Of a stretch of 64,000 bases of DNA, positions 3,978 to 62,088 are shown in pieces (the stretch's first letter is position 1; every line of letters starts with the position of its first letter). The position numbers were made by a program, and so were the translations under genes. The DNA is from Minisyncoccota bacterium (lineage in GTDB: Bacteria; Patescibacteriota; Minisyncoccia; Phycocordibacterales; UBA9973), in contig JBAZXO010000002.1 of the NCBI GenBank assembly GCA_041659785.1, forward strand, positions 55,479-119,478, given 5' to 3'. The notes below the pieces were generated by a model. The model did not search any database. It was not told where the DNA came from and was given only the letters and a program-made list of their open reading frames with translations.

Positions 3978-3980
3978 AAT

Positions 3981-4026
3981 TTACAAACTAAAAACTCCGC
4001 TTGAGGCGGAATTTTTAGTTTGTAAA
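3981..4026. terminator. Bidirectional hairpin terminator between convergent genes
   Basis: ttacaaactaaaaactccgc-ttga-ggcggaatttttagtttgtaa, a near-perfect ~20-bp stem with a T/A run on both sides. Confidence 0.6.
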
Positions 4027-5852: not shown

Positions 5853-5924
5853 GCACCCGTAGTGAAATGGATATCACAACAGTCTTCGGAACTGTCGTTG
5901 GGGGTTCGAATCCCTCCGGGTGCA
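5853..5924 (+). tRNA. tRNA-Arg (anticodon TCG)
   Basis: Acceptor GCACCCG/CGGGTGC, D-stem GTGA/TCAC, anticodon stem ACAGT/ACTGT with loop CTTCGGA, T-loop GGGGGTTCGAATCCCTC. Confidence 0.85.
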
Positions 5925-5931
5925 CAAAGTC

Positions 5932-7659
5932 GTGGAACAAAACACTAAAAATTTAATAGCAAAAATACCCAAAGAGGTTTCACATGTAACAGATACATTA
6001 GAAAAGTACGGCTTTGAAGTGTACCTTGTTGGTGGATGTGTCCGTGATCTTTTAATGGGCAAAGAGCCAAAAGACTGGGACATTACAACTAACGCTAAAC
6101 CAGAACAAATTATTCCTCTTTTTAAAAAAACTGTTTATGAAAATACTTTTGGAACGGTAGGTGTGGTTCTCCCCTTTAATAAGGGGGAGTGGCCAAAGGT
6201 CGAGGGGGTGGTTTCACATGTAACAGACCCCTCCTCAATCCTCCCCTTAGCAGGGGAGGAAAATATGATTATTGAGGTTACGCCATACAGAATTGAGGCA
6301 AAATATAGTGATTTTAGGCATCCTGACGAGGTAAAATTCAGTGATAAGCTAGAAGATGACCTTAAAAGGCGTGATTTTACAGTTAACGCCCTGGCCTTAA
6401 GTCCCTCCAATTCGGCGGGCAAGCCTAAAGGACAACTGGTGGATTTGTTTGATGGTATAAAGGACATTAAAGACAAGACGTTAAAAGCAGTAGGGAACCC
6501 AGATGACCGTTTTGCAGAAGATGCGCTTCGAATGTTGCGTGCTGTCCGTTTCTCTTGCCAATTAAATTTTTCTGTGTCGTATGAAACTACAGAAAGTATT
6601 TTAAAAAATTCAGAGTTAATAAAAAAAATATCTGAAGAAAGAATTCGTGATGAGTTTGTAAAAATAATTATGTCAGAAAATCCTGCGAGCGGAATTGTGA
6701 TGTTACAAAAATTTAATTTGTTAAAAAATATTATTCCTGAATTAGAAGAGGGTATTGGTTGTGAACAATTAGGTGAACATATTTATGATGTGTGGGATCA
6801 TTTACTTCATGCACTCTCACATGCCGCAGACAAGAATTGGCCTTTAGAAATAAGGCTCGCAGCACTGTTCCATGATATCGGAAAGCCGAGGGCAAGAAGG
6901 TTAGCCGTACCTGATGCTTTTGCTCGGGATATCCTGGCAGGCCAACGTCACCACTCACAAAAGTATACAGGTTCGGCTAACCAAGAAGATTTCTCTGAGG
7001 CTTTTTCGAATGGTGACGTTGCGAAGCAGGACATTCCTGAGAAAAAGAACTCAGAGAAATCTTCAAAGAAAAAATATACTTTTTACGGTCATGAAGTTAT
7101 CGGCGCAAGGATGGCGAAAAAAATAATGGAGAGATTAAAATTTCCTAAAAAAGAAATTGATCTTGTGGAAAAACTCGTACGCAACCATATGTTTTTCTCA
7201 GACACTGAATTGATTACACTTTCTGCTGTTCGAAGAATTGTTGTGAAAGTTGGTAAAGAAAATATTTGGCCACTTATGAATGTCCGTGAGTGTGATAGAG
7301 TGGGGATGAATAAAAAAGAAGCACCCTATCGGCTTCGAAAATACTTCGCGATGATAGAAGAAGCTCTTCGTGACCCTATTTCTGTAGGACAACTAAAGAT
7401 TAATGGAGAATATATGATAAAAGAGCTTGGGATTACTCCTGGACCCAGAATGGGATGGATTTTAAATGCTTTATTGGAAGAAGTTTTAGACGCGCCAGAG
7501 AAGAATACCGTAAGTCATTTATCTGGATTGGTAAAATCATTAAATATGCTTGGTGATGCTGAGCTTAAAGTCCTCGGTTTGCGAGGAAAAGAAAAGAAAG
7601 AAGAGCTTGAAGAAGAAGAAGTCGCGAAACTTCACGAAAAGCATGGAGTGAGAAAGTAA
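5932..7659 (+). CDS. cca: CCA-adding enzyme / poly(A) polymerase family nucleotidyltransferase with HD domain; likely GTG start at 5932, just after tRNA-Arg
   Basis: YLVGGCVRDLLMGKEPKDWDITT head motif and an HD-domain region (LFHDIGKP). The track start at 5920 overlaps the tRNA 3' end. Confidence 0.8.
   Translation: MEQNTKNLIAKIPKEVSHVTDTLEKYGFEVYLVGGCVRDLLMGKEPKDWDITTNAKPEQIIPLFKKTVYENTFGTVGVVLPFNKGEWPKVEGVVSHVTDPSSILPLAGEENMIIEVTPYRIEAKYSDFRHPDEVKFSDKLEDDLKRRDFTVNALALSPSNSAGKPKGQLVDLFDGIKDIKDKTLKAVGNPDDRFAEDALRMLRAVRFSCQLNFSVSYETTESILKNSELIKKISEERIRDEFVKIIMSENPASGIVMLQKFNLLKNIIPELEEGIGCEQLGEHIYDVWDHLLHALSHAADKNWPLEIRLAALFHDIGKPRARRLAVPDAFARDILAGQRHHSQKYTGSANQEDFSEAFSNGDVAKQDIPEKKNSEKSSKKKYTFYGHEVIGARMAKKIMERLKFPKKEIDLVEKLVRNHMFFSDTELITLSAVRRIVVKVGKENIWPLMNVRECDRVGMNKKEAPYRLRKYFAMIEEALRDPISVGQLKINGEYMIKELGITPGPRMGWILNALLEEVLDAPEKNTVSHLSGLVKSLNMLGDAELKVLGLRGKEKKEELEEEEVAKLHEKHGVRK
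6168..6263. repeat. GC-rich composite palindromic insertion inside cca, read in-frame; contains an 18-nt direct repeat of 5976..5993
   Basis: ctcccctttaataagggggag hairpin, then tggccaaaggtcgagggggtgg, then ggtttcacatgtaacaga (identical to 5976..5993), then cctcccc-ttagca-ggggagg hairpin. Related to the family-B elements at 30945 and 58931. Confidence 0.45.
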
Positions 7660-7751
7660 AAAACAAATCTAGCAAAATTTTATCAGGTCCTCGGTTCTCT
7701 GGGTCCCTGTCCCAGCCAGACCATGCTAAAATTTTCTAGATTTGTTTTTTT
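7658..7751. repeat. MITE-like palindromic element, family A (core caggtcctcgg...ccagcc; TIRs aaaaacaaatctagcaaaatttt / aaaattttctagatttgttttttt). Probably also the cca/TMEM175 terminator
   Basis: The inverted termini and GC core were read directly. Homologous copies lie at 29772 (inside comM) and 57507, with a fragment at 40395. Confidence 0.5.
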
Positions 7752-7759
7752 ATATCTTT

Positions 7760-8422
7760 TTAATCTGCGAAGTGGCCTTTTTTGTCTTCGCCGAAAAACA
7801 TATGATGAAGTGTTTTTAGAAAATTTTCGAAAAGTTTTGTGCTATAAGAGGAAAGGTTGAAAATCACAGCTAATGTAAACAAAACCAAGGAAAGTTTTAT
7901 ATTATAAAAAGAAAGGGGAATAGCAATAAGAGCAAAAACAACAGGAACTAATGTGCGTATGGTGCTGCCACGGATTTCTCTTTTTGTTATTTCTGGATTT
8001 TTTATATGTTCAGAAAAAAGCACGTATCTTCTCATCCAATACAGAGTAAGCCCTATCAACATGATGTGAATAGCGAAAAGTATTATAGATAATTCATTGC
8101 TGCTGAAACTTCCAAGGACGCTCGCTGAAAAAGGAACTAAGCTTATAAGCATAAAAAATAAAGCATTTATATTTGTGAGCCTAGAGTCTATATTTTTTGC
8201 ATAAATAGAGACAAAAAAATGGTGCGCTCTCCAATAAGTGAAAAGTAATGAAAAACTCAAAACATAACTGAGCATTAATGGTAATAATTTTTTGATCTCA
8301 AGCCAGAGGCCGTAGTTGTCTATTGGTCCCCAAATGGTGGGTAATTTAATTTGAAAAACTAACACCGTCATCACTATCGCAAAAATTCCATCGGATAATT
8401 GTTCTAATCTATTGTGGCTCAT
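7760..8422 (-). CDS. TMEM175/DUF1211-family membrane protein (putative K+ channel)
   Basis: NRLEQLSDGIFAIVMTVLV matches the R-x-x-x-FSDGVFAI signature. Multi-TM. Confidence 0.65.
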   Translation of the reverse strand: MSHNRLEQLSDGIFAIVMTVLVFQIKLPTIWGPIDNYGLWLEIKKLLPLMLSYVLSFSLLFTYWRAHHFFVSIYAKNIDSRLTNINALFFMLISLVPFSASVLGSFSSNELSIILFAIHIMLIGLTLYWMRRYVLFSEHIKNPEITKREIRGSTIRTLVPVVFALIAIPLSFYNIKLSLVLFTLAVIFNLSSYSTKLFENFLKTLHHMFFGEDKKGHFAD

Positions 8423-10308: not shown

Positions 10309-10572
10309 ATGTTAGCAACAAAGAAAAAACAAGCAGTTATAAAGAAAAATCAAATTCATGAGACAGATACTGGCTCTCCGGAAGTTCAGGTTGCCGTTTT
10401 GTCTACTCAGATTGATGCTCTTGCCAAACACCTTAAAAAGCATAAAAAAGATAATCATTCTCGCCGGGGGCTTATCAAGATGGTGGCCGATCGCCGAACT
10501 CATTTGAAATATTTGGAACGAAAAAGCAAGCCTCGTTATGCTGCTTTGATGAAGAAAATGGATCTTGCATAA
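10309..10572 (+). CDS. rpsO: 30S ribosomal protein S15
   Basis: LSTQIDALAKHLKKHKKDNHSRRGLIKMVADRRTHLKYL is the canonical S15 sequence. Confidence 0.9.
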   Translation: MLATKKKQAVIKKNQIHETDTGSPEVQVAVLSTQIDALAKHLKKHKKDNHSRRGLIKMVADRRTHLKYLERKSKPRYAALMKKMDLA

Positions 10573-10595
10573 TAGGAAGATTTTTTAACTATTCT

Positions 10596-10689
10596 CGGCA
10601 TGCTTTTTATAAAGCAATCTATCTGGCGTTGCTACGGGAGCGTTCTGCTCGGCGCTCCCGCTTGCGCAAGGCTTTCTAAAAAGCATGCC
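10596..10689. repeat. Palindromic element / terminator after rpsO (TIRs cggcatgctttttataaagc and gctttctaaaaagcatgcc; inner hairpin gggagcg...cgctccc)
   Basis: Read directly. The right arm covers the track ATG of the next ORF, which argues that ORF really starts at 10724. Confidence 0.4.
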
Positions 10690-29150: not shown

Positions 29151-29243
29151 AATCACAAAAATTCAAAAAATTTTGGCGCCTTCGCCCTCGGAGACATAGT
29201 GCAGGTGACCCACGACGCTTTAAATTTTTTAATTTTTGTGATT
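29151..29243. repeat. Palindromic element (TIRs aatcacaaaaattcaaaaaatttt and aaattttttaatttttgtgatt) with a GC-rich core ggcgccttcgccctcggagaca...
   Basis: Read directly. The aaaatttt termini and the ccctcgg core resemble family A. Confidence 0.35.
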
Positions 29244-29257
29244 TAAAAGCAATCATT

Positions 29258-30877
29258 ATGAGTTTTGCAAAAGTCTACTCTGCACAAGTTAATTTACTTA
29301 AGGGTTCTATCGTGACAATTGAAGTGGACCTCTCGCGAGGTCTTCATTCTTTTAGTTTGGTTGGTCTGCCTGATAAAGCGGTGGATGAGTCTAAAGACAG
29401 AGTAAGCGGAGCGATAAAGAATTCTGGTTTTAAGTCACCGAAAGCAAAAAATCAAAAGATAATCGTCTCACTTTCACCAGCTGATTTAAAAAAAGAAGGA
29501 CCATTTTTTGATCTTGGGATTGCACTATCTTATATGCTCGCCGCAGGAGATGTGAAGTTTGATTCAGAGAAAAAGATTTTCTTAGGAGAACTTGGGCTCG
29601 ATGGCACTCTGCGTAGAATTCGTGGAGCATTGCCTCTCGCCCAAGAAGCGAAGAGGCTTGGCTTCGAAGAAATATATTTACCAAAAGAGAATGCAGTCGA
29701 GGCGGCACTCGTGGAGGGCGTCACAATTTTCGGAGCAAATAGTTTAAAAGAAGTTGTTGAGCACCTCAGTTTCCGTGAGTCTAGCAAAATTTCTTCGGGT
29801 CCTCGGTCCTCCGGGGCCCCACACCCCGGCCAGACCACTCAGAAATTTTCTAGTCTCACGGAAACCGGGAAGCTTATTTTGTCTCAGCCACAAACTAAAA
29901 TAAATTATAAAAAAGAAGTTTCACGCACAGACTTTTCTGATATTCGTGGACAAGAAGGAGCAAAACGAGGACTGGAGATTGCAGCAGCTGGCGGGCACAA
30001 TATTGCTATGTACGGTCCGCCAGGCACAGGCAAGACGATGCTTGCACGAGCATTCTCACAACTTCTGCCAGATTTAAATATTGAAGAAGTGTTAGAGATT
30101 ACAGGTATCCATTCTGTGGCGGGGAGTACAATGGGGGAGCTCGTTTGTTTTGCTCCATTTCGAGCGCCACACCACACGTCGTCTTATGTCTCTATCATTG
30201 GTGGAGGAACATACCCAAAGCCAGGGGAAGTGACCCTCGCGCATCGCGGGGTTTTATTTTTAGACGAATTTCCAGAATTTGAAAAGAGAGTTATCGAATC
30301 TTTGCGTCAGCCCCTCGAAGACAACATCGTCTCGATCTCTCGCGCTAAAGGCACAGCCGTATTTCCTTCAAATTTTATTTTAGTAGCAGCGATGAACCCT
30401 TGCCCTTGCGGGAATGCGACTTCAAAACAAAAAGCCTGCATTTGCAAACCTTCAGACCTGGATAGATATAAAAGAAAACTTTCTGGTCCAATAATTGACC
30501 GTATTGATCTATGGGTTTCCGTAGGGAATGTGGATTATAAAAAGTTGGGAGGGGAGGGCAACGGAGAGAAGAGTGAGAAGATAAAAGAGAGAGTTACAAA
30601 AGCGCGAGAAATTCAAAAAGATAGATTTAAAAAATTTGGAAAGAGCATAATTACAAATAGCGAAATGAATGTGAAAGATTTAGGAGCGATGATAAACCTC
30701 TCTGGCAAGGTGCGAGACTTATTGGATGACAGCGCAGAGCGTTTATCACTGTCGGCTCGTGCGTATCATCGAGTTATTAAAATAGCTCAAACTATCGCAG
30801 ATCTGGAATCTTCTCCCAATATCGAAGAACACCATATTCTAGAAGCCATACAATATAGGCCTAAAGTTAATAATTAA
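29258..30877 (+). CDS. comM: YifB/ComM Mg-chelatase-like AAA+ ATPase
   Basis: N-terminal Lon-like domain. Walker A MYGPPGTGKTML. C-terminal ChlI-type domain. Confidence 0.9.
   Translation: MSFAKVYSAQVNLLKGSIVTIEVDLSRGLHSFSLVGLPDKAVDESKDRVSGAIKNSGFKSPKAKNQKIIVSLSPADLKKEGPFFDLGIALSYMLAAGDVKFDSEKKIFLGELGLDGTLRRIRGALPLAQEAKRLGFEEIYLPKENAVEAALVEGVTIFGANSLKEVVEHLSFRESSKISSGPRSSGAPHPGQTTQKFSSLTETGKLILSQPQTKINYKKEVSRTDFSDIRGQEGAKRGLEIAAAGGHNIAMYGPPGTGKTMLARAFSQLLPDLNIEEVLEITGIHSVAGSTMGELVCFAPFRAPHHTSSYVSIIGGGTYPKPGEVTLAHRGVLFLDEFPEFEKRVIESLRQPLEDNIVSISRAKGTAVFPSNFILVAAMNPCPCGNATSKQKACICKPSDLDRYKRKLSGPIIDRIDLWVSVGNVDYKKLGGEGNGEKSEKIKERVTKAREIQKDRFKKFGKSIITNSEMNVKDLGAMINLSGKVRDLLDDSAERLSLSARAYHRVIKIAQTIADLESSPNIEEHHILEAIQYRPKVNN
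29772..29862. repeat. Family-A palindromic element inserted in-frame inside comM (encodes ...FRESSKISSGPRSSGAPHPGQTTQKFSSLTETG...)
   Basis: TIRs tccgtgagtctagcaaaatttct and agaaattttctagtctcacgga. Core cgggtcctcggtcctccggggccccacaccccggccagacc aligns with the 7658 copy. Confidence 0.5.
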
Positions 30878-31234: not shown

Positions 31235-31801
31235 ATGAAAAATGTTTATCAAACAAAACTAGAATCTTTTTACGGCGACAACAAAAGGATGCCTACGTAT
31301 TCTGAGATGATGAAGCTCTTTGGTTTTAAATCAAAGAATGCCGTTTTTCGCGTGGTGGAGAAATTAATAGAAGCTGGACTCGTAGCAAAAGACCACTTGG
31401 GTAGACTTGTCCCAGCTGAAACTTTTGGAGAAGTACCAATGCTTGGTTTTGTAACTGCGGGGTTTCCAGCTACCGTAGAAGAAGAGTTAGCAGACACTAT
31501 AAAATTAGACGATCTTTTAATAAAAAATAAATCTTTAACATATATGCTCGAAGTCGATGGTGACTCTATGATCGATGCTCACATCGAGCGGGGAGACATG
31601 GTGCTCGTAGAGAAGGCAACTGTCGCGAAAGATGGGCAGATAGTCATAGCTGAAGTAGATGGAGAGTTTACGATGAAATATTTTCGTAAAGATGGAGCAA
31701 AGGTCTGGCTCGAACCAGCTAATAAAAAATATAAACCAATCTATCCAGAACACTCTTTAAATATAAATGCAGTTTTAAAAGCAGTAATAAGAAAATATTA
31801 A
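31235..31801 (+). CDS. lexA: LexA repressor
   Basis: wHTH N-terminus. Ala-Gly cleavage site (VTAGFPA). S24 peptidase motifs VDGDSM...GDMVLV...GEFTMKYF. Confidence 0.85.
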   Translation: MKNVYQTKLESFYGDNKRMPTYSEMMKLFGFKSKNAVFRVVEKLIEAGLVAKDHLGRLVPAETFGEVPMLGFVTAGFPATVEEELADTIKLDDLLIKNKSLTYMLEVDGDSMIDAHIERGDMVLVEKATVAKDGQIVIAEVDGEFTMKYFRKDGAKVWLEPANKKYKPIYPEHSLNINAVLKAVIRKY

Positions 31802-31804
31802 AAT

Positions 31805-31843
31805 AAACTAAAAAATCCCCCAGAAGGGGATTTTTTAGTTTAT
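31805..31843. terminator. Bidirectional terminator aaactaaaaaatcccc-cagaa-ggggattttttagttt
   Basis: Read directly. Confidence 0.6.
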
Positions 31844-31859
31844 CTCGAGATAAAATGAA

Positions 31860-38329: not shown

Positions 38330-40360
38330 CTAGATCAAGAAAACGACCAAAAGTAAGGCAACGATGTTTAAGATCTTTATCATTGGGTTTATGGCAGGAC
38401 CAGCTGTGTCTTTATAAGGGTCTCCGACGGTATCACCCGTAACTGCAGCTTTGTGGGCATCGCTACCCTTGCCACCGTGGTTGCCTTGTTCAATGTGTTT
38501 CTTAGCATTGTCCCAAGCGCCTCCACCGGAGGTCATTGAAATAGCCACGAAGAGTCCAGTGACGATAGATCCAACGAGGAGTCCTCCTAGAACTATTAAA
38601 CCATTATTTTTTCCAAAAACTAGAACTACAACTATCGGCGCAAGCACAGGGATGAGTGCTGGCAAAATCATTTGTTTGATAGCTGCACCAGTGATGATGG
38701 AAACTGCTTTAGCGTAATCAGGTTTTGCCGTACCTTCCATGATTCCTTTTATTTCTCTGAATTGTCTGCGGATTTCTTCTACAACTTTTCCTGCAGTTTT
38801 TCCTACAGCTTCCATGCAAAGTGCACCGAAATAATATGGTAGAAGTCCTCCCAAGAATAGACCGATGATTACGTAAGGATTAGTTAAATCGAAAGTGATA
38901 GCTTTTCCAGCTTTTATAATTTCTTCTGTGTAAGAAGCGAATAGTACAAGTGCAGCGAGGCCTGCAGAGCCGATAGCATAACCCTTCGTGACAGCCTTTG
39001 TGGTATTTCCAACAGCATCGAGGGGGTCAGTGACATTTCGAACTGATTCTGGAAGTTCTGCCATCTCTGCGATTCCTCCGGCATTGTCAGTAATAGGACC
39101 ATAAGCATCTATCGCAACAATGATTCCTGTCATTGAGAGCATAGACATTGCAGCGACGGCTATACCGTAAAGTCCAGCTGCATTGTAACTAACAAATATT
39201 CCTAGGACGATTGTGATCAAGGGTAAAGCAGTAGCTTTCATAGAGATAGCTAAACCTTGAATAACATTTGTGCCGTGACCAGAGACGGATGCTTCTGCAA
39301 TTGATTTTACTGGATAGTATTTTGTAGAAGTGAAATATTCTGTAATGACGACGAGAGCTCCAGTAACAAAGAGTCCAACAAGAGAAGAAATAAATAAAGA
39401 CATTACTGAATATTTACCATTACCTTCCATTAATAATTTTGTAACAGGATAAAAGAGGACTGCGGCAATAACGCCAGAAGCAATGAGACCCTTGTATAGG
39501 GCACCCATGATGTTTTGTTTTTTACCCAAACGTACGAACCATGTACCGATGATAGATGCAAAAATTGCTATTCCACCTATTACGAGAGGGAAGATAATAG
39601 CGTTTTCAAAACCTACAAAAAGAAGTGAACCTAGAAGCATCGTAGCGACTGAGGTAACAGCATAAGTTTCAAATAAATCAGCGGCCATACCAGCACAGTC
39701 TCCAACATTGTCTCCGACATTGTCTGCGATAACTCCAGGATTTCTTGGATCATCTTCTGGAATGCCTGCTTCTAGTTTGCCTACGAGGTCAGCACCCACG
39801 TCTGCAGCTTTAGTAAAAATTCCTCCACCGAGTCTTGCGAAAATAGAAATGAGAGATGCACCGAAGCCAAGTCCAACGAGAGCAGTGACATCTTTTGTAA
39901 TTGCATAAAAAGCAGTAACACCGAGAAGGGCAAGACCGACTACAAGGAGTCCAGTAACTGTGCCACCTTTAAAAGCGAGAGAAAGAGCTTCGTTGATTCC
40001 ACTTCGGGCAGCTTCTGTCGTTCGGACATTTGCTCTAACGGATACATTCATACCGATATATCCTGCAAGTCCAGAAAAAACAGCCCCAACAAGGAAACCC
40101 ATTGCCATTGTAAAACCGAGCTTCGGAGTGAGTGCAATGACAAGGAAAAGTATCACAGCGATAAAGCCGATAGTTTTGTATTGTTTATTTAAATAAGCAG
40201 AGGCTCCCTCTTGGATTGCTTTAGCTATCTCCTGCATGCGTTCATTGCCGGGGCTCTTTTTTAATATTATTTTAGCGAGAAATAAACCGTAAACGATAGC
40301 GATAAACGAACTGATGATTGCGAACAATAAAAATTGATTCATATCTTTTTTGCCAAACAA
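38330..40360 (-). CDS. hppA: Membrane-bound proton/sodium-translocating pyrophosphatase
   Basis: [18 protein letters not shown] and [19 protein letters not shown] signature motifs. 676 aa, multi-TM. Confidence 0.95.
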
Positions 40361-40394
40361 ATTATTTTACTTCTGAATGGTCTGGGGATTTTTT

Positions 40395-40408
40395 CCGAGG
40401 ACCTGAAG
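40395..40408. repeat. Fragment of the family-A element (ccgaggacctgaag, reverse orientation) between hppA and nusA
   Basis: It is the reverse complement of the cttcaggtcctcgg/cttcgggtcctcgg cores at 7686 and 29795. Confidence 0.3.
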
Positions 40409-40466
40409 AAAAAAAGATAATTTATTTGGCCTACGTTAAATTACTAATATTAATAATAAATTTACT

Positions 40467-57112: not shown

Positions 57113-57505
57113 TTAAAATGCTTGAAGAATTTTTTCTAGAATTTTTTTCTCTTGATCTCCTTTGTATTCCTTTGTTGGAAAATTTGCTAAATTATCACCC
57201 TTGTATCTTGGTATTAAATGAATATGAAAATGTGGAACTTCGTTACCTACTACGGATTCTTGCACATAGTCACAAGCAAATGTCTTTTTTAACACAAGCA
57301 TTAATTTTTTTGTTAGTTTAAATATTTCGGAAATTGTTTCATCATCCACGTCTTGCATCCAAACTGTATGTTTTCTAGGAATTATTACAAGATGACCATA
57401 GGAAACTGGTTTGATATCAAGAAAAACCAAAAATTTTTCATCTTGGTAAACAAATTCTTTTGGAATTTCTCCATTTGCAATTTTACAAAAAATACAGTTT
57501 TCCAT
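57113..57505 (-). CDS. HIT-family (histidine triad) nucleotide hydrolase
   Basis: CIFCKI zinc motif and HFHIHLIP histidine triad. Confidence 0.85.
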   Translation of the reverse strand: MENCIFCKIANGEIPKEFVYQDEKFLVFLDIKPVSYGHLVIIPRKHTVWMQDVDDETISEIFKLTKKLMLVLKKTFACDYVQESVVGNEVPHFHIHLIPRYKGDNLANFPTKEYKGDQEKKILEKILQAF

Positions 57506-57506
57506 A

Positions 57507-57590
57507 GAAATTGAAATAAATCAAATTTTTTTTCGGGTCCTCGGAAAAAATCCGGAGATTAGCTCAAAAAATTTATTTATTTCAATTTCT
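57507..57590. repeat. Family-A palindromic element (TIRs agaaattgaaataaatcaaatttttttt and aaaaaatttatttatttcaatttct; core cgggtcctcggaaaaaatccggag) between the HIT gene and recJ
   Basis: Read directly. Its core start matches the comM and 7686 copies. Confidence 0.45.
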
Positions 57591-57623
57591 ATATTGTACT
57601 CCATTTATGCTAAAATTCAATTC

Positions 57624-59930: not shown

Positions 59931-61433
59931 ATGCGGGATAGAGTTTTTTATACAATATGTTTTGGATTTTTGTTTGGGGTGCTGTTGCGCTCTTTTTTAT
60001 TTGTAAATTTATATTTTGTTATTTTATTTAGTGTAATTGCATTGGCTTTATTATTATTCTTTACACTTATCTCGAAAAATAATTGGGGAATATTAGCTTC
60101 TCTTTTTATTTTGATTTTTTGTTTTGGAATTTTTAGATTTAATATGGTGGACGTTACTAACCCTACTGTTTTTGAGTCCTGTGTTGGGCAAAAGATTACT
60201 TTAAGAGGGGAAATTGTAGATGAACCAAGTATTAAAGAAAATAATCAGCAGCTAATTGTACTTGCCACCACTCGAAGTTGGACATTGGGTTCTTTTGATG
60301 TCCAACCTCAGGAAACAGAAATTTTATTGTCAGTTAATTTAGATGAAAATTACAAATACGGAGATGAAATAAATTTCACAGGTGTTTTAAAAAAGCCGGA
60401 GAATTTTATTACAGATACGGGTAAGGTTTTTGATTATGTAAATTATCTCCGCAAAGACGGCATTTTGTATGTGATGAGTTATCCTAAAGTTGAGATCATT
60501 TCACGAGGAAATGGCAACAGCATTCAAAATGCCTTATTTTCCGCTAAGGAAAAGTTTTTAGAAAAAATGAATTTGGCTATAACCGGACCCGAGAGTCTGC
60601 TCATGGGTGGGCTCATTTTAGGAGAGAAGTCTTCTTTCAGCCAAGCTTTAAGGGCTAGCTTCGTGAATACTGGAACGATACATATAGTAGCGCTTTCTGG
60701 ATACAATGTGACGATTGTCGCAGAATGGATAATGAAACTATTTGCTCGAATATCTTTTGTTTCCTTAAATTTTAGTATTGGAATGGGTATTTTGACTATT
60801 ATTTTATTTATTTTAATGACGGGTGGAAGTTCTACAGCTATTCGGGCGGGGATAATGGCGACTCTCGCGCTTATTGCCCGCGCGACCGGCAGAAATTATG
60901 ATGTCGCGCGGGCTCTTGTTCTGGCCGGAGTATCTATGATAATCCTCAATCCATTTTTACTTGTGTATGATGTTTCTTTTCAGCTTTCTTTTATTGCGAC
61001 AGTGGCGGTGATATTCCTTGCCCCTAGAATTGAGAAATATTTTATGTGGGTACCAGAGCGTTTTCAATTACGAGACATTGTGTCTGTCACGTCTGCAGCA
61101 TATATTTTTGTTTTTCCATTTATTCTTTATAAAATGGGGAATTTCTCACTTGTCGCTTTACCCGCGAACGTTTTAATTCTTCCCTTTATTCCATTTACGA
61201 TGATGCTTGGTTTTATTACCGGTTTTGCAGGACTTATTTATTATGTATTTGCTATACCTTTTGGTTATGTTTCTTATTTATTTTTACACTATGAGCTCAG
61301 TGTGATTAATTTCTTCTCACATCTTCCTTTCGCAGCTTTTTCTTTTCCAGATTTTCCACTTTTCCTCACAATAGCAATATACATATATTTTATTTACAAA
61401 CTTTTTTGGAGGAGTATAAAAGAAAATATATGA
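59931..61433 (+). CDS. comEC: ComEC/Rec2 competence channel, membrane part (DUF4131 plus competence domain). Lacks the beta-lactamase-like domain
   Basis: Multi-TM protein. LLMGGLILGEKSSFSQALRASFVNTGTIHIVALSGYNV competence-domain motif. Confidence 0.8.
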   Translation: MRDRVFYTICFGFLFGVLLRSFLFVNLYFVILFSVIALALLLFFTLISKNNWGILASLFILIFCFGIFRFNMVDVTNPTVFESCVGQKITLRGEIVDEPSIKENNQQLIVLATTRSWTLGSFDVQPQETEILLSVNLDENYKYGDEINFTGVLKKPENFITDTGKVFDYVNYLRKDGILYVMSYPKVEIISRGNGNSIQNALFSAKEKFLEKMNLAITGPESLLMGGLILGEKSSFSQALRASFVNTGTIHIVALSGYNVTIVAEWIMKLFARISFVSLNFSIGMGILTIILFILMTGGSSTAIRAGIMATLALIARATGRNYDVARALVLAGVSMIILNPFLLVYDVSFQLSFIATVAVIFLAPRIEKYFMWVPERFQLRDIVSVTSAAYIFVFPFILYKMGNFSLVALPANVLILPFIPFTMMLGFITGFAGLIYYVFAIPFGYVSYLFLHYELSVINFFSHLPFAAFSFPDFPLFLTIAIYIYFIYKLFWRSIKENI

Positions 61434-61491
61434 AAATTTTCTTACGGGCAATGCAGTAGCCTCCCGTGGCGAAAACCTTCATATATTTTCT

Positions 61492-62088
61492 TTATAAAGC
61501 CCCAACAAAATTCTTTTCTATTACCTCCCAGTTTAGATTTTCAAAGAAGTCCTCAACATATTGTTTTTTACCACTTGGTTGATAGTCTGCGACGAAAGCA
61601 TGTTCCCACATATCAAGCATAAGTATTGGTGTCGCGCCATTTAGTTGTCCCAAATGTTGTTCATCAATCCAATAAGCAAGAAGACGTTTGTCTTTTTTGT
61701 CATACCAAAGCACAGCCCAGCCGATACCACGAGTTGTTACTGCCATATTTTTAAAAGCTGAAAGAAAATTATCAAAAGATCCTGACGCATCTTCTATTGC
61801 TTTTTTGAGCATGCTTTCTGCTGCAAGTGGTTTTGGTCCACCCTCGAGCGAAGAAAAATATATTTCATGATTGCGCATTCCGTTGTACTCAAAACTAAAT
61901 CGGCGGTGAAGTTCTCCAATCACGTAAGAGTTTGCTACTATGTCAGTATTGTATTTTTCAAACAAGTCAAAAATGCTATTTGCATTTTTGACGTATCCCG
62001 CATATAGCTTCAAGTGTTCTTCGACATTTTTAGCTGAAATACCCTTCAGCTCTCCTATATTAAATTTTTTCTCTTCAAATTTTTTCAT
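61492..62088 (-). CDS. sod: Fe/Mn superoxide dismutase
   Basis: HEIYFSSL...DMWEHAFVADYQ motifs. Confidence 0.9.
   Translation of the reverse strand: MKKFEEKKFNIGELKGISAKNVEEHLKLYAGYVKNANSIFDLFEKYNTDIVANSYVIGELHRRFSFEYNGMRNHEIYFSSLEGGPKPLAAESMLKKAIEDASGSFDNFLSAFKNMAVTTRGIGWAVLWYDKKDKRLLAYWIDEQHLGQLNGATPILMLDMWEHAFVADYQPSGKKQYVEDFFENLNWEVIEKNFVGAL

What the first reader, a model, noticed from the sequence alone, without database searches (positions are those of the whole stretch)
29772..29862. Family-A palindromic element ('ggtcctcgg' core, tctag(c)aaaatttt termini) present in at least 4 copies, one inserted in-frame inside comM/yifB
Full copies lie at 7658..7751 (cca/TMEM175 intergenic), 29772..29862 (inside comM, translated as a 30-aa loop between the Lon-like and AAA+ domains) and 57507..57590. 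A fragment lies at 40395..40408, and a related element sits at 29151..29243. All have AT-rich inverted termini and a GC-rich core, which makes them MITE-like. In-frame survival inside an essential-looking gene parallels the Rickettsia palindromic elements (RPEs). The comM copy is 90 or 91 nt depending on where the terminal-repeat boundary is set, so the frame is preserved only if the true element is 90 nt.
Basis: seen in the sequence. Interest (0 to 1): 0.7.

Follow-up and report, generated by a model that had tools for sequence, protein, structure and literature searches.

The report
In-frame palindromic repeat of Paceibacteria genomes
A roughly 90-base hairpin-forming repeat with a GC-rich core occurs six times in this stretch of a candidate-phyla-radiation bacterium, once read through in frame inside comM, and the same repeat sits in frame inside many housekeeping genes of related genomes, much like the palindromic elements of Rickettsia.

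Summary
The window comes from a Candidatus Paceibacterota MAG. It carries three intact copies of one hairpin repeat: A 7658-7750, B 29769-29865 inside comM, and D 40352-40430 on the minus strand. D is a full short-core copy, not a fragment. Three decayed copies exist: C 57505-57591, and F1 6903-6978 and F2 6985-7064, both in frame inside cca. The hairpin at 29151-29243 has the same architecture but an unrelated core.

Each copy has the core TCA-GGTCCTCGG-(mini-hairpin or AAAAAAT)-CCAGACC-ATTC. A 15-27 bp A/T-rich stem clasps it, and 20 of 21 stem pairs covary.

A pattern scan of species-representative genomes found about 55 further copies, all in low-GC Patescibacteria MAGs. About two thirds lie inside long ORFs with no stop, in five of six frames. 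Hosts include LeuRS, PheRS-beta, GatA, Pol I, UvrA, UvrD, SMC and the CCA enzyme.

comM and gatA relatives include intact, partly deleted and unoccupied alleles. The complementary strand folds better in 45 of 50 copies, whatever the host gene's direction.

Best reading: a non-autonomous, RPE-like selfish palindromic repeat, translated as a loop. How it moves is unresolved. I found no published description.

The parts
7658..7750 (+). Copy A. Intact long-core copy in the spacer between the convergent cca (stop at 7659) and TMEM175 (stop at 7760) genes. A T-run follows it.
   Evidence: dG -36.9, z -8.2; 85.9 bits; this copy was in the training set.
29769..29865 (+). Copy B. Intact long-core copy inside comM, read through in frame as about aa 172-203 (FRESSKISSGPRSSGAPHPGQTTQKFSSLTE).
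   Evidence: (dG -51.1, z -8.8).
40352..40430 (-). Copy D. Intact short-core copy (GGTCCTCGG-AAAAAAT-CCCCAGACC) in the nusA / H+-PPase spacer. The relative L118 has a plain GC hairpin at this position instead.
   Evidence: 49.2 bits, E 8e-10; not in the training set.
57505..57591 (+). Copy C. Decayed copy with the left box kept and the right box lost. It fills the spacer between the divergent HIT and recJ genes. Its flanks are orthologous to those of the intact copy in L045.
   Evidence: (23.6 bits, E 0.002).
6903..6978 (+). Copy F1. Decayed copy in frame inside cca (HD domain). Its arms CCTGATGCTTTTGC / (G/A)CAAAAG(C/T)ATACAGG match those of the LeuRS copy L037.
   Evidence: (21.4 bits).
6985..7064 (-). 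Copy F2. Decayed copy in the opposite orientation, in frame inside cca and adjacent to F1. The relative L002 has an intact copy at the same protein site.
   Evidence: I11, I17; 30.6 bits, E 4e-5.
29258..30877 (+). comM/yifB ORF (539 aa), host of copy B.
   Evidence: (100% identical to a Candidatus Paceibacterota YifB protein).
5920..7659 (+). cca ORF (579 aa), host of F1 and F2.
29151..29243 (+). Hairpin E in the dksA-like / comM spacer. It has the same architecture (13-bp stem, bulged C, 9-bp A/T stem, GC-rich centre) but a different core. It is not demonstrably family A.
   Evidence: this spacer is only 3-19 nt in five relatives; 13.2 bits, E about 1.

Best explanation
Family A is a real, non-autonomous palindromic repeat of Paceibacteria (Parcubacteria) genomes. 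It is about 75-100 nt long.

Anatomy (shown):
- A conserved GC-rich centre: TTTTyc-TCA-GGTCCTCGG, then either TTCTC plus a 5-6 bp GC mini-hairpin or the loop AAAAAAT, then CCAGACC-ATTC-rrAAAA.
- The centre is closed by a 15-27 bp A/T-rich stem. The stem sequence differs between copies but stays complementary.
- There is often an unpaired C, or a mismatch, 13 nt before the core.

Distribution (shown):
- It occurs in several copies per genome in Paceibacteria MAGs from many independent assemblies.
- Variant cores are shared by copies at unrelated sites.
- Related genomes differ in whether a given site is occupied.

Inferred history: the repeat multiplied copy-wise. The surviving copies are those in intergenic spacers, and those that landed in frame and free of stop codons in tolerant loops or inter-domain linkers of proteins.

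In comM (inferred): the ribosome reads through copy B and produces a Gly/Pro/Ser-rich loop of about 25-30 aa between the Lon-like and AAA+ domains.

The comM element then decays by slippage deletions across the hairpin (shown for comM alleles).

Folding strand: the strand complementary to GGTCCTCGG forms the more stable hairpin, independently of host-gene direction (shown). This suggests that the selected or mechanistic form is a single strand of fixed polarity, either ssDNA or an own transcript, rather than the host mRNA (inferred).

The enzyme and the insertion chemistry are unknown.
For: Repeat and structure:
-.
- 83.5% of cells are paired against 64.9% in shuffles. 20 of 21 stem pairs change on both sides. 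The covariation score is 0.452 against 0.141, reached by 0 of 500 shuffles, and it falls to 0.23 or less when the partners are slid.
- 57 model hits in 527 kb of related loci.

Spread:
- about 55 copies in low-GC Patescibacteria MAGs. The hits in high-GC genomes lack flanking stems and are chance matches.
- Several copies per genome, for example four in JBAQFO01.

In-frame residence:
- about 40 of 62 copies lie inside long ORFs. Frame use is +2:16, -2:9, +0:7, -0:4, +1:2, so the encoded peptides are unrelated to each other.
- The one frame with a conserved TGA is used only by a doubtful hit.
- the hosts are the CCA enzyme, PheRS-beta, GatA, SMC, Pol I, LeuRS, UvrA and UvrD.
- at most one ambiguous gene-interrupting copy.

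Mobility and turnover:
- The short-core variant AAAAAAT and the variant GTCGCAAkCTCAA each occur at unrelated loci.
- Arm motifs are shared by copies in unrelated genes.
- LeuRS carries the element in the same loop in opposite orientations, with unrelated arms (L037 and L089).
- comM alleles are intact, partly deleted or lack the element.
- The GatA loop is 33 aa with the element and 12-15 aa in relatives.

Strand asymmetry:
- A.C 29 against G.T 9, p = 0.002.
- the complementary strand is more stable in 45 of 50 copies, -41.4 against -35.7 kcal/mol.
- the direction is the same whichever strand carries the host ORF.
Against: - No target-site duplication, no autonomous element and no associated enzyme were found. 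Half-sites occur only at chance level.
- No pair of copies at different loci is identical over its full length, so recent transposition is not shown.
- Many copies are old and orthologous: PheRS-beta in four species, and GatA in genomes with 36% and 47% GC. Their core boxes are nevertheless unchanged. A purely selfish, inactive relic would not be expected to behave this way.
- Translation through the element is inferred from open frames only.
- What exactly was inserted in comM and gatA is ambiguous: the net difference is 63-75 nt, but the hairpin is about 90-97 nt.
Confidence: 0.62

Rival explanations
1. A host-functional structured nucleic-acid motif. The hairpin, folded from the strand complementary to GGTCCTCGG, would be a recognition site for a host protein in replication, recombination, repair or RNA metabolism. 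It would be kept in place by selection, and its presence inside genes would be tolerated or exploited.
For: - The core boxes are invariant in old orthologous copies while the surrounding coding sequence, the arms and the mini-hairpin have diverged.
- Compensatory changes occur between orthologous copies (PheRS-beta, Pol I, comM).
- The fold is strand-specific and independent of host transcription.
- Element orientation correlates weakly with local GC skew: 42 against 19, p = 0.007. This is confounded with gene orientation and not corrected for orthologous copies.
Against: - Decayed and partly deleted copies persist without visible consequence (C, F1, F2; comM alleles P0029, P0040).
- Close relatives lack the element at the same sites.
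- The positions show no common theme beyond tolerant loops and spacers.
- Covariation in a palindrome can also arise without selection, through template switching between the arms.
Confidence: 0.2
2. An intervening sequence that does not reach the protein. It would be excised from the mRNA or bypassed by the ribosome, as described for the GC-rich 'byp' inserts of a yeast mitochondrion (from my own knowledge).
For: It is a stable hairpin inside ORFs of an AT-rich genome. There is no direct evidence of translation.
Against: - Every clearly intragenic copy is stop-free in the host frame, and that frame stays open across the whole element.
- The only frame that carries a conserved stop (TGA in GACCTGA) is the one that is not used.
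- That pattern is what read-through predicts. It would not be needed if the element were removed or bypassed.
- No Rfam ribozyme or intron matches.
Confidence: 0.05
3. An ordinary fast-evolving linker, or chance similarity. The comM segment would be just a variable Gly/Pro-rich linker.
For: The comM linker is hypervariable in length (507-553 aa) and carries other GC-rich hairpin-coding inserts in relatives.
Against: The same nucleotide sequence occurs in intergenic DNA and in at least ten unrelated proteins, in five reading frames and both orientations. The similarity is therefore at the DNA level.
Confidence: 0.02
4. Hairpins generated locally at each site. A short core would be captured, and its arms built by snap-back copying of the neighbouring sequence (an inverted target duplication), so that the arms are host-derived.
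For: - In comM, short alleles (P0011, P0012, P0031) retain a sequence like the left arm but lack the core and right arm. The difference is 72-75 nt.
- In GatA, the difference is exactly 63 nt, the size of the unit from the bulged C to the end of the inner stem.
- Pairing dips at the -13 junction.
Against: - Arm sequences are shared by copies in unrelated genes: TCTAGCAAAATTT in A, B and Pol I; CCTGATGCTTTTGC in LeuRS, L003 and cca; TTCGCCGG in GatA, L059, L105 and L043. The arms therefore travel with the element.
- The short comM alleles contain that shared arm motif, so they are better read as deletion remnants. Proven slippage deletions point the same way (P0040 against P0009).
Confidence: 0.08

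Closest known systems
Rickettsia palindromic elements (RPE; Ogata et al. 2000, as listed in PMC3184786, about 105-146 bp)
   Same: Short palindromic repeats in a small AT-rich genome. They occur in intergenic DNA and fused internally and in frame into protein-coding genes, including housekeeping genes. No transposase is known.
   Different: - A different phylum, and no sequence relationship was tested.
- Shorter, about 75-100 nt.
- A sharply conserved 40-nt centre with freely covarying arms.
- A measurable strand preference for folding.
- Found in low-GC Patescibacteria MAGs from many different assemblies, not within a single genus.
Bacterial MITEs such as Correia/NEMIS, ERIC, RUP and Coxiella QMITEs (PMC3184786, PMC5896051)
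   Same: Small, non-autonomous, inverted arms, multiple copies, occasional in-frame fusion with ORFs, able to fold as RNA hairpins.
   Different: No target-site duplication and no parent IS with matching ends were found. The ends are the least conserved part, whereas MITE ends are usually the most conserved.
GC clusters and double-hairpin elements of fungal mitochondrial DNA (from my own knowledge)
   Same: GC-rich palindromic modules scattered through a very AT-rich genome, including inside coding regions.
   Different: Bacterial host, long A/T stems, and a single conserved core sequence.
Strand-specific ssDNA hairpin substrates: integron attC sites, and IS200/IS605 ends and REP/RAYT (PMC3733652 for REP)
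   Same: Structure is conserved more than sequence. There are extrahelical bases or mismatches at fixed places. One strand folds better than the other.
   Different: - attC sites conserve the outer R boxes and vary in the centre; here it is the reverse.
- REPs are 20-40 nt, extragenic and tagged with GTAG/CGTC.
- No cassette context, and no TnpA or RAYT link was seen.

Membership tests
RPE-like in-frame palindromic repeats (functional kind) | A repeated palindromic DNA element, present in several copies per genome | tested here: met
   Six copies in the window. 57 hits in 527 kb of related loci, with up to four per genome.
RPE-like in-frame palindromic repeats (functional kind) | Copies inserted inside protein-coding genes without breaking the frame, while homologues lack the segment | tested here: met
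   comM; gatA; about 40 of 62 copies inside long ORFs.
RPE families of Rickettsia (homology) | Sequence similarity to the RPE consensus sequences | not tested
   No RPE consensus was available in the tools. The Rfam search found nothing. The host lineage is unrelated, so I do not file it as an RPE.
MITE | Terminal inverted repeats | tested here: met
   Arms of 13-30 paired bases.
MITE | Target-site duplication flanking each copy | tested here: inconclusive
   Flanks of A, B, L109 and the GatA copies were compared with the sequences printed. Only the GatA copy has a possible 7-nt direct repeat (ACTTCGT), and it is weaker in its orthologue L012. No fresh empty site was available.
MITE | A parent autonomous element with the same ends | tested here: not met
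   Isolated half-sites occur only at chance level in 590 kb. There are no genuine copies in viral contigs. This covers held sequence only, not whole genomes.
REP / BIME (RAYT-associated) | A 20-40 nt extragenic imperfect palindrome tagged with GTAG or CGTC | tested here: not met
   The length is 75-100 nt and most copies are intragenic. No GTAG or CGTC tag is seen in the aligned copies.
Integron attC | Conserved outer R''/R' boxes (RYYYAAC / GTTRRRY) with a variable centre, at cassette boundaries | tested here: not met
   The ends carry no conserved sequence and the centre is conserved. The copies lie inside housekeeping genes.
Any described RNA family (Rfam 15) | A match at or near a family's gathering score | tested here: not met
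   Only four tRNAs reach gathering score in the window. Around copies B and E, all matches with E up to 10 are far below gathering score.
Intrinsic terminator | A GC-rich hairpin directly followed by a T-run at a gene's 3' end | tested here: inconclusive
   Copy A lies between convergent genes and is followed by TTTTTTT. Intragenic copies cannot act as terminators without killing their host gene. The terminator scan tool was not run.

The most novel reading that the evidence does not exclude
The element may be a new kind of strand-specific hairpin element. Its unit would be defined by a conserved 40-nt core plus 'any' complementary stem. It would be processed as single-stranded DNA (or as its own RNA) of fixed polarity. 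It would then be either a mobile element with an undescribed mechanism or a host-recruited recognition signal. In either case it has colonised essential genes across a whole class of candidate-phyla-radiation bacteria and is maintained there by selection at the nucleotide level.
Probability: 0.25. Interest if true: 0.85.

Novelty: new member of a known kind. Interest (0 to 1): 0.68.

Why it matters
- Candidate-phyla-radiation bacteria have tiny, streamlined genomes. Even so, an aminoacyl-tRNA synthetase, a DNA polymerase, repair proteins and other housekeeping proteins carry in-frame copies of one selfish-looking hairpin.
- This gives a second, independent and much broader natural system beside Rickettsia RPEs for asking two questions: how repeats enter proteins without harm, and whether they seed new loops.
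- It explains part of the length variation and the 'insertions' seen in these organisms' proteins.
- It is a practical warning for annotation, alignment and phylogeny of these genomes.
- The conserved core and the strand-specific fold give concrete handles for finding the enzyme or host factor that recognises it.

Tried and rejected
- **Rfam.** Searches at gathering score and at E up to 10 found only tRNAs and noise.
- **Viral contigs.** The core pattern gave nine hits. None has flanking stems, so they are chance matches.
- **Peptide search.** A search of the protein database with the element's two commonest translations failed: no candidate shared enough words. This cost one search.
- **AlphaFold2 of ComM.** With 67 close homologues the model had mean pLDDT 46. 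Residues 174-204 are coil with pLDDT below 50, but so is most of the AAA+ domain. It is not usable as evidence.
- **NJ tree of ComM.** It suggested that identical backbones carry swapped linkers. DNA alignment showed this is a recombination mosaic: L126 and L123 are 100% identical over the 3' 800 nt and about 10% diverged upstream. I dropped the 'cassette swap' idea.
- **Inverted target duplication (snap-back) model.** It fits the arithmetic in comM (63+12 nt) and gatA (63 nt). It conflicts with arm motifs shared between unrelated genes. I kept it only as a minor rival.
- **DNA-uptake-sequence idea.** Isolated core words occur only at chance level.
- **K-turn, C/D-box, SRP-like and tRNA-like readings of the core.** No convincing match. 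The only lead is a 13-nt identity with the variable-loop and T-arm region of a tRNA-Lys gene.
- **Taxon labels.** Records labelled 'Candidatus Saccharibacteria' encode a LeuRS that is nearly identical, over the segments compared, to that of a Paceibacterota record. I therefore do not claim spread beyond Paceibacteria-type genomes.
Full report
**1. What is in the window**

The comM-like ORF 29258..30877 (539 aa) reads through the element. It is 100% identical to a YifB/ComM protein of a Candidatus Paceibacterota MAG. The window is about 36% GC.

The 9-mer GGTCCTCGG occurs exactly four times. With one mismatch allowed there are 10 matches against 3.2 expected, and no shuffle reaches 10. All four exact matches sit in the centre of long hairpins. 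These fold far better than shuffled controls, with z from -5.1 to -8.8.

Reading the copies side by side shows a common plan:
- an outer stem whose sequence is different in every copy but complementary within each copy;
- an unpaired C on the 5' arm;
- a 9-bp A/T inner stem;
- a GC-rich centre, TCA-GGTCCTCGG ... CCAGACC-ATTC.

**2. Census of the window**

A covariance model was built from 31 copies, two of them from the window. Run without filters, it finds the following:

| Copy | Coordinates reported by the model (strand) | Score |
|---|---|---|
| A | 7662-7746 (+) | 85.9 bits |
| B | 29774-29860 (+) | 75.6 bits |
| D | 40354-40428 (-) | 49.2 bits, E 8e-10, not in the training set |
| F2 | 6987-7062 (-) | 30.6 bits |
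| C | 57511-57585 (+) | 23.6 bits |
| F1 | 6903-6978 (+) | 21.4 bits |

- D is a full copy whose inner mini-hairpin is replaced by AAAAAAT.
- C has lost the right-hand box.
- F1 and F2 are decayed copies in opposite orientation, side by side and in frame inside the cca ORF 5920..7659, within its HD domain. A relative has an intact copy at the same place in cca (L002).
- The hairpin at 29151-29243 has the same architecture but an unrelated centre. It is not significant with the model (13 bits, E about 1).
- Other hits at this level are plain long hairpins, for example 3980-4026 and 31801-31845.

**3. The family outside the window**

The pattern GGTCCTCGG-N5-35-CCAGACCAYKC was scanned over one genome per species of bacteria and archaea. 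About 55 are genuine copies. All are in low-GC Patescibacteria MAGs labelled Paceibacterota, Nomurabacteria, Kaiserbacteria, Minisyncoccia, Parcubacteria or 'Saccharibacteria'. The rest are matches in high-GC genomes with no flanking stems.

I distrust the 'Saccharibacteria' labels. The LeuRS of one such record is nearly identical, over the segments compared, to that of a Paceibacterota record.

The model finds 57 copies in 527 kb of these loci, including eight that the pattern had missed. Several genomes contribute two to four loci. Viral contigs hold only chance matches. Rfam has nothing similar. Five literature searches found no description.

**4. Anatomy and conservation**

Sequence conservation is confined to TTTTycTCA-GGTCCTCGG ... 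CCAGACCATTC-rrAAAa. Beyond that the information content drops to background. Even so, left position -k still pairs with right position k-3 in 80-98% of copies for k = 4-12. Pairing dips at k = 13, the place of the bulged C or a mismatch, and continues to about k = 27.

On a 31-sequence alignment with a structure I specified:
- 83.5% of cells pair, against 64.9% in shuffles.
- 20 of 21 stem pairs show changes on both sides.
- The covariation score is 0.452 against 0.141, reached by 0 of 500 shuffles. It falls to 0.23 or less when the partners are slid.
- The GGTC/GACC and GG/CC helices never vary.
- One pair of the mini-hairpin switches between C-G (20 copies) and U-A (10 copies).

Variants of the centre recur at unrelated loci. 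They behave as subfamilies:
- long core;
- AAAAAAT short core;
- GTCGCAAkCTCAA;
- GGGGwAAGTCA.

**5. Where the copies sit**

About 40 of 62 copies lie well inside long stop-free ORFs. Five more that I first counted as genic sit within 20 codons of the ORF's upstream stop codon and are probably upstream of the true start.

Frame use relative to the element is +2:16, -2:9, +0:7, -0:4, +1:2. The peptides are therefore unrelated: QVLGSPGPQPRPDHS, GPRFSGAPTPARPF, NGLAGVGDPENRGP, EWSGRGVGPRRTEDL. The sixth frame carries a conserved TGA and is used only by one doubtful hit.

Pfam identifies the hosts as the CCA-adding enzyme, PheRS-beta, GatA, SMC, DNA polymerase I, LeuRS, UvrA and UvrD/PcrA, plus ComM here.
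- Pol I carries the element at the same site in two species.
- PheRS-beta carries it in four species.
- LeuRS carries it in the same loop in two genomes, but in opposite orientations and with unrelated arms.

Among the copies not inside ORFs, only one (L024) could be read as interrupting a gene. This pattern is what translation through the element plus purifying selection would give. It argues against removal or bypass of the element.

**6. comM in detail**

The 120 closest ComM homologues (80-95% identity) range from 507 to 553 aa. Essentially all of that variation lies in the linker after EVVEH. Their linkers fall into these classes:
- the same insert (SKISSGPR ... QTTQKFSSL), with variable middles;
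- short Lys-rich linkers (IDETKK ...);
- other GC-rich hairpin-coding inserts;
- the left arm only (LSFSESSK|KTNKLI; P0011, P0012, P0021, P0031, P0062);
- partial elements (P0029, P0040).

DNA from eleven alleles shows two things. Carriers of the peptide keep the palindrome, with compensated arm changes (L121, L126). P0040 is a slippage deletion of a P0009-like allele.

An NJ tree suggested that identical backbones carry different linkers. DNA alignment shows this is homologous-recombination mosaicism: L126 and L123 are identical over the last 800 nt and about 10% diverged upstream.

The 'left-arm-only' alleles could in principle be the pre-insertion state. That would mean the right arm is an inverted copy of host sequence, with 63 + 12 = 75 nt added. 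However, their TCCAGTAAA matches the arm motif TCTAGCAAA / CCAGCAGAA. Copy A, the Pol I copies and others at unrelated sites share that motif. I therefore read these alleles as deletion remnants.

An AlphaFold2 model was too poor to use.

**7. A second gene, gatA**

In L036 and L012 the loop between DSTS and IGVP is 33 aa and consists almost entirely of the hairpin. In the closest relatives recovered from metagenomes (74% and 68% identity, and more distant ones) the loop is 12-15 aa. In ordinary bacteria it is about 20 aa. L138 shows no trace of the element. L137 may hold a collapsed remnant.

The net difference of 63 nt is smaller than the 87-nt hairpin. Either part of the native loop was lost or overwritten, or the arms include native sequence. 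I could not resolve this. No general target-site duplication is visible.

**8. Which strand folds**

In the stems, transition-type mismatches are A.C on the GGTCCTCGG strand 29 times and G.T 9 times (43 non-orthologous copies, p = 0.002). Pyrimidine-pyrimidine mismatches outnumber purine-purine ones 28 to 8. On the complementary strand these become G.U/G.T and G.A, the least disruptive mismatches.

Accordingly the complementary strand folds better in 45 of 50 copies: -41.4 against -35.7 kcal/mol, Wilcoxon p = 9e-9. For the stems alone it is 29 against 8.

The direction of the bias is the same for copies in ORFs on either strand and for intergenic copies: 30:9, 9:3 and 8:3. It is therefore not a property of the host mRNA. 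Five of the six window copies follow the rule.

Element orientation also correlates weakly with local GC skew (42 against 19, p = 0.007). This is confounded with gene orientation and not corrected for orthologous copies.

**9. Interpretation**

Shown:
- a repeat family with a conserved core and covarying stems;
- many copies across low-GC Patescibacteria MAGs;
- frequent in-frame residence in housekeeping genes;
- occupied, decayed and unoccupied states at the same site;
- subfamilies shared between unrelated sites;
- a strand-specific fold.

Inferred:
- copy-wise spread of a non-autonomous element;
- translation through it as a loop;
- survival by selection for frame and location;
- a single-stranded intermediate or ligand.

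Unknown: the enzyme, the exact ends, and whether the invariant core boxes reflect ongoing activity, gene conversion or a host function.

The closest known phenomenon is the Rickettsia palindromic element (about 105-146 bp, fused internally into protein genes; PMC3184786, citing Ogata et al. 2000). I file this as the same kind of thing in a new lineage, not as a member of the RPE families.

Noticed in passing
window 6903-7064: The cca gene carries two decayed family-A copies in opposite orientation, back to back and in frame. Their variant cores (CAACGTCACCAyTC) are inverted repeats of each other, which suggests a local inverted duplication.
   Followed up: partly
window 10597-10689 and 61402-61510; L118 9875-10000 and L120 9874-10000: Further hairpins have long A/T-rich stems and GC-rich centres of unrelated sequence. 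The dksA-like / comM spacer holds a different 126-nt hairpin element in two relatives and is only 3-19 nt long in five others. This genome group seems to hold several families of such elements.
   Followed up: partly
window 3980-4026 and 31801-31845: Two near-perfect 18-21 bp hairpins at gene ends share the arm sequence AAACTAAAAA(A/C)TCC. They may be a small repeated terminator family.
   Followed up: no
L123 about 10515-10580 (P0060); L125 about 10510-10570 (P0114); L124 (P0096): At the same comM linker, other relatives carry different GC-rich hairpin-coding inserts, for example PPLSNKNRTSPPSQGERNK encoded by ctcccccttcgcagggggag, and KGVGVPTSDKVRASG. The linker is a hot spot for such sequences.
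   Followed up: partly
L126 1-1606 versus L123 10001-11596: The two comM genes are 100% identical over the 3' 800 nt and about 10% diverged in the 5' half. This is a clear homologous-recombination mosaic between Paceibacteria lineages.
   Followed up: yes
L109 4175-4248: A tRNA-Lys(UUU) gene contains AGGTCCTCGGTTC (variable loop plus T-arm). This is identical over 13 nt to the left box of the element plus the next three bases. It may be chance or a hint at the element's origin.
   Followed up: partly
L037 2489-2574 and L089 2698-2785: LeuRS carries the element in the same loop (after RFIEKVWR) in two genomes, but in opposite orientation and with unrelated arms. This means either two independent insertions or an inversion between the arms.
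   Followed up: partly
62 copies in the window and loci: The GGTCCTCGG strand tends to lie on the locally G-rich strand (42 against 19). This could reflect an orientation bias relative to replication, or merely the 26:11 excess of copies on the coding strand.
   Followed up: partly
window 40361-40466 versus L118 21252-21297: Copy D occupies the nusA / H+-PPase spacer. A relative has an ordinary GC hairpin (gccccgccatggcgggg) at that position, so intergenic copies may stand in for terminators.
   Followed up: partly
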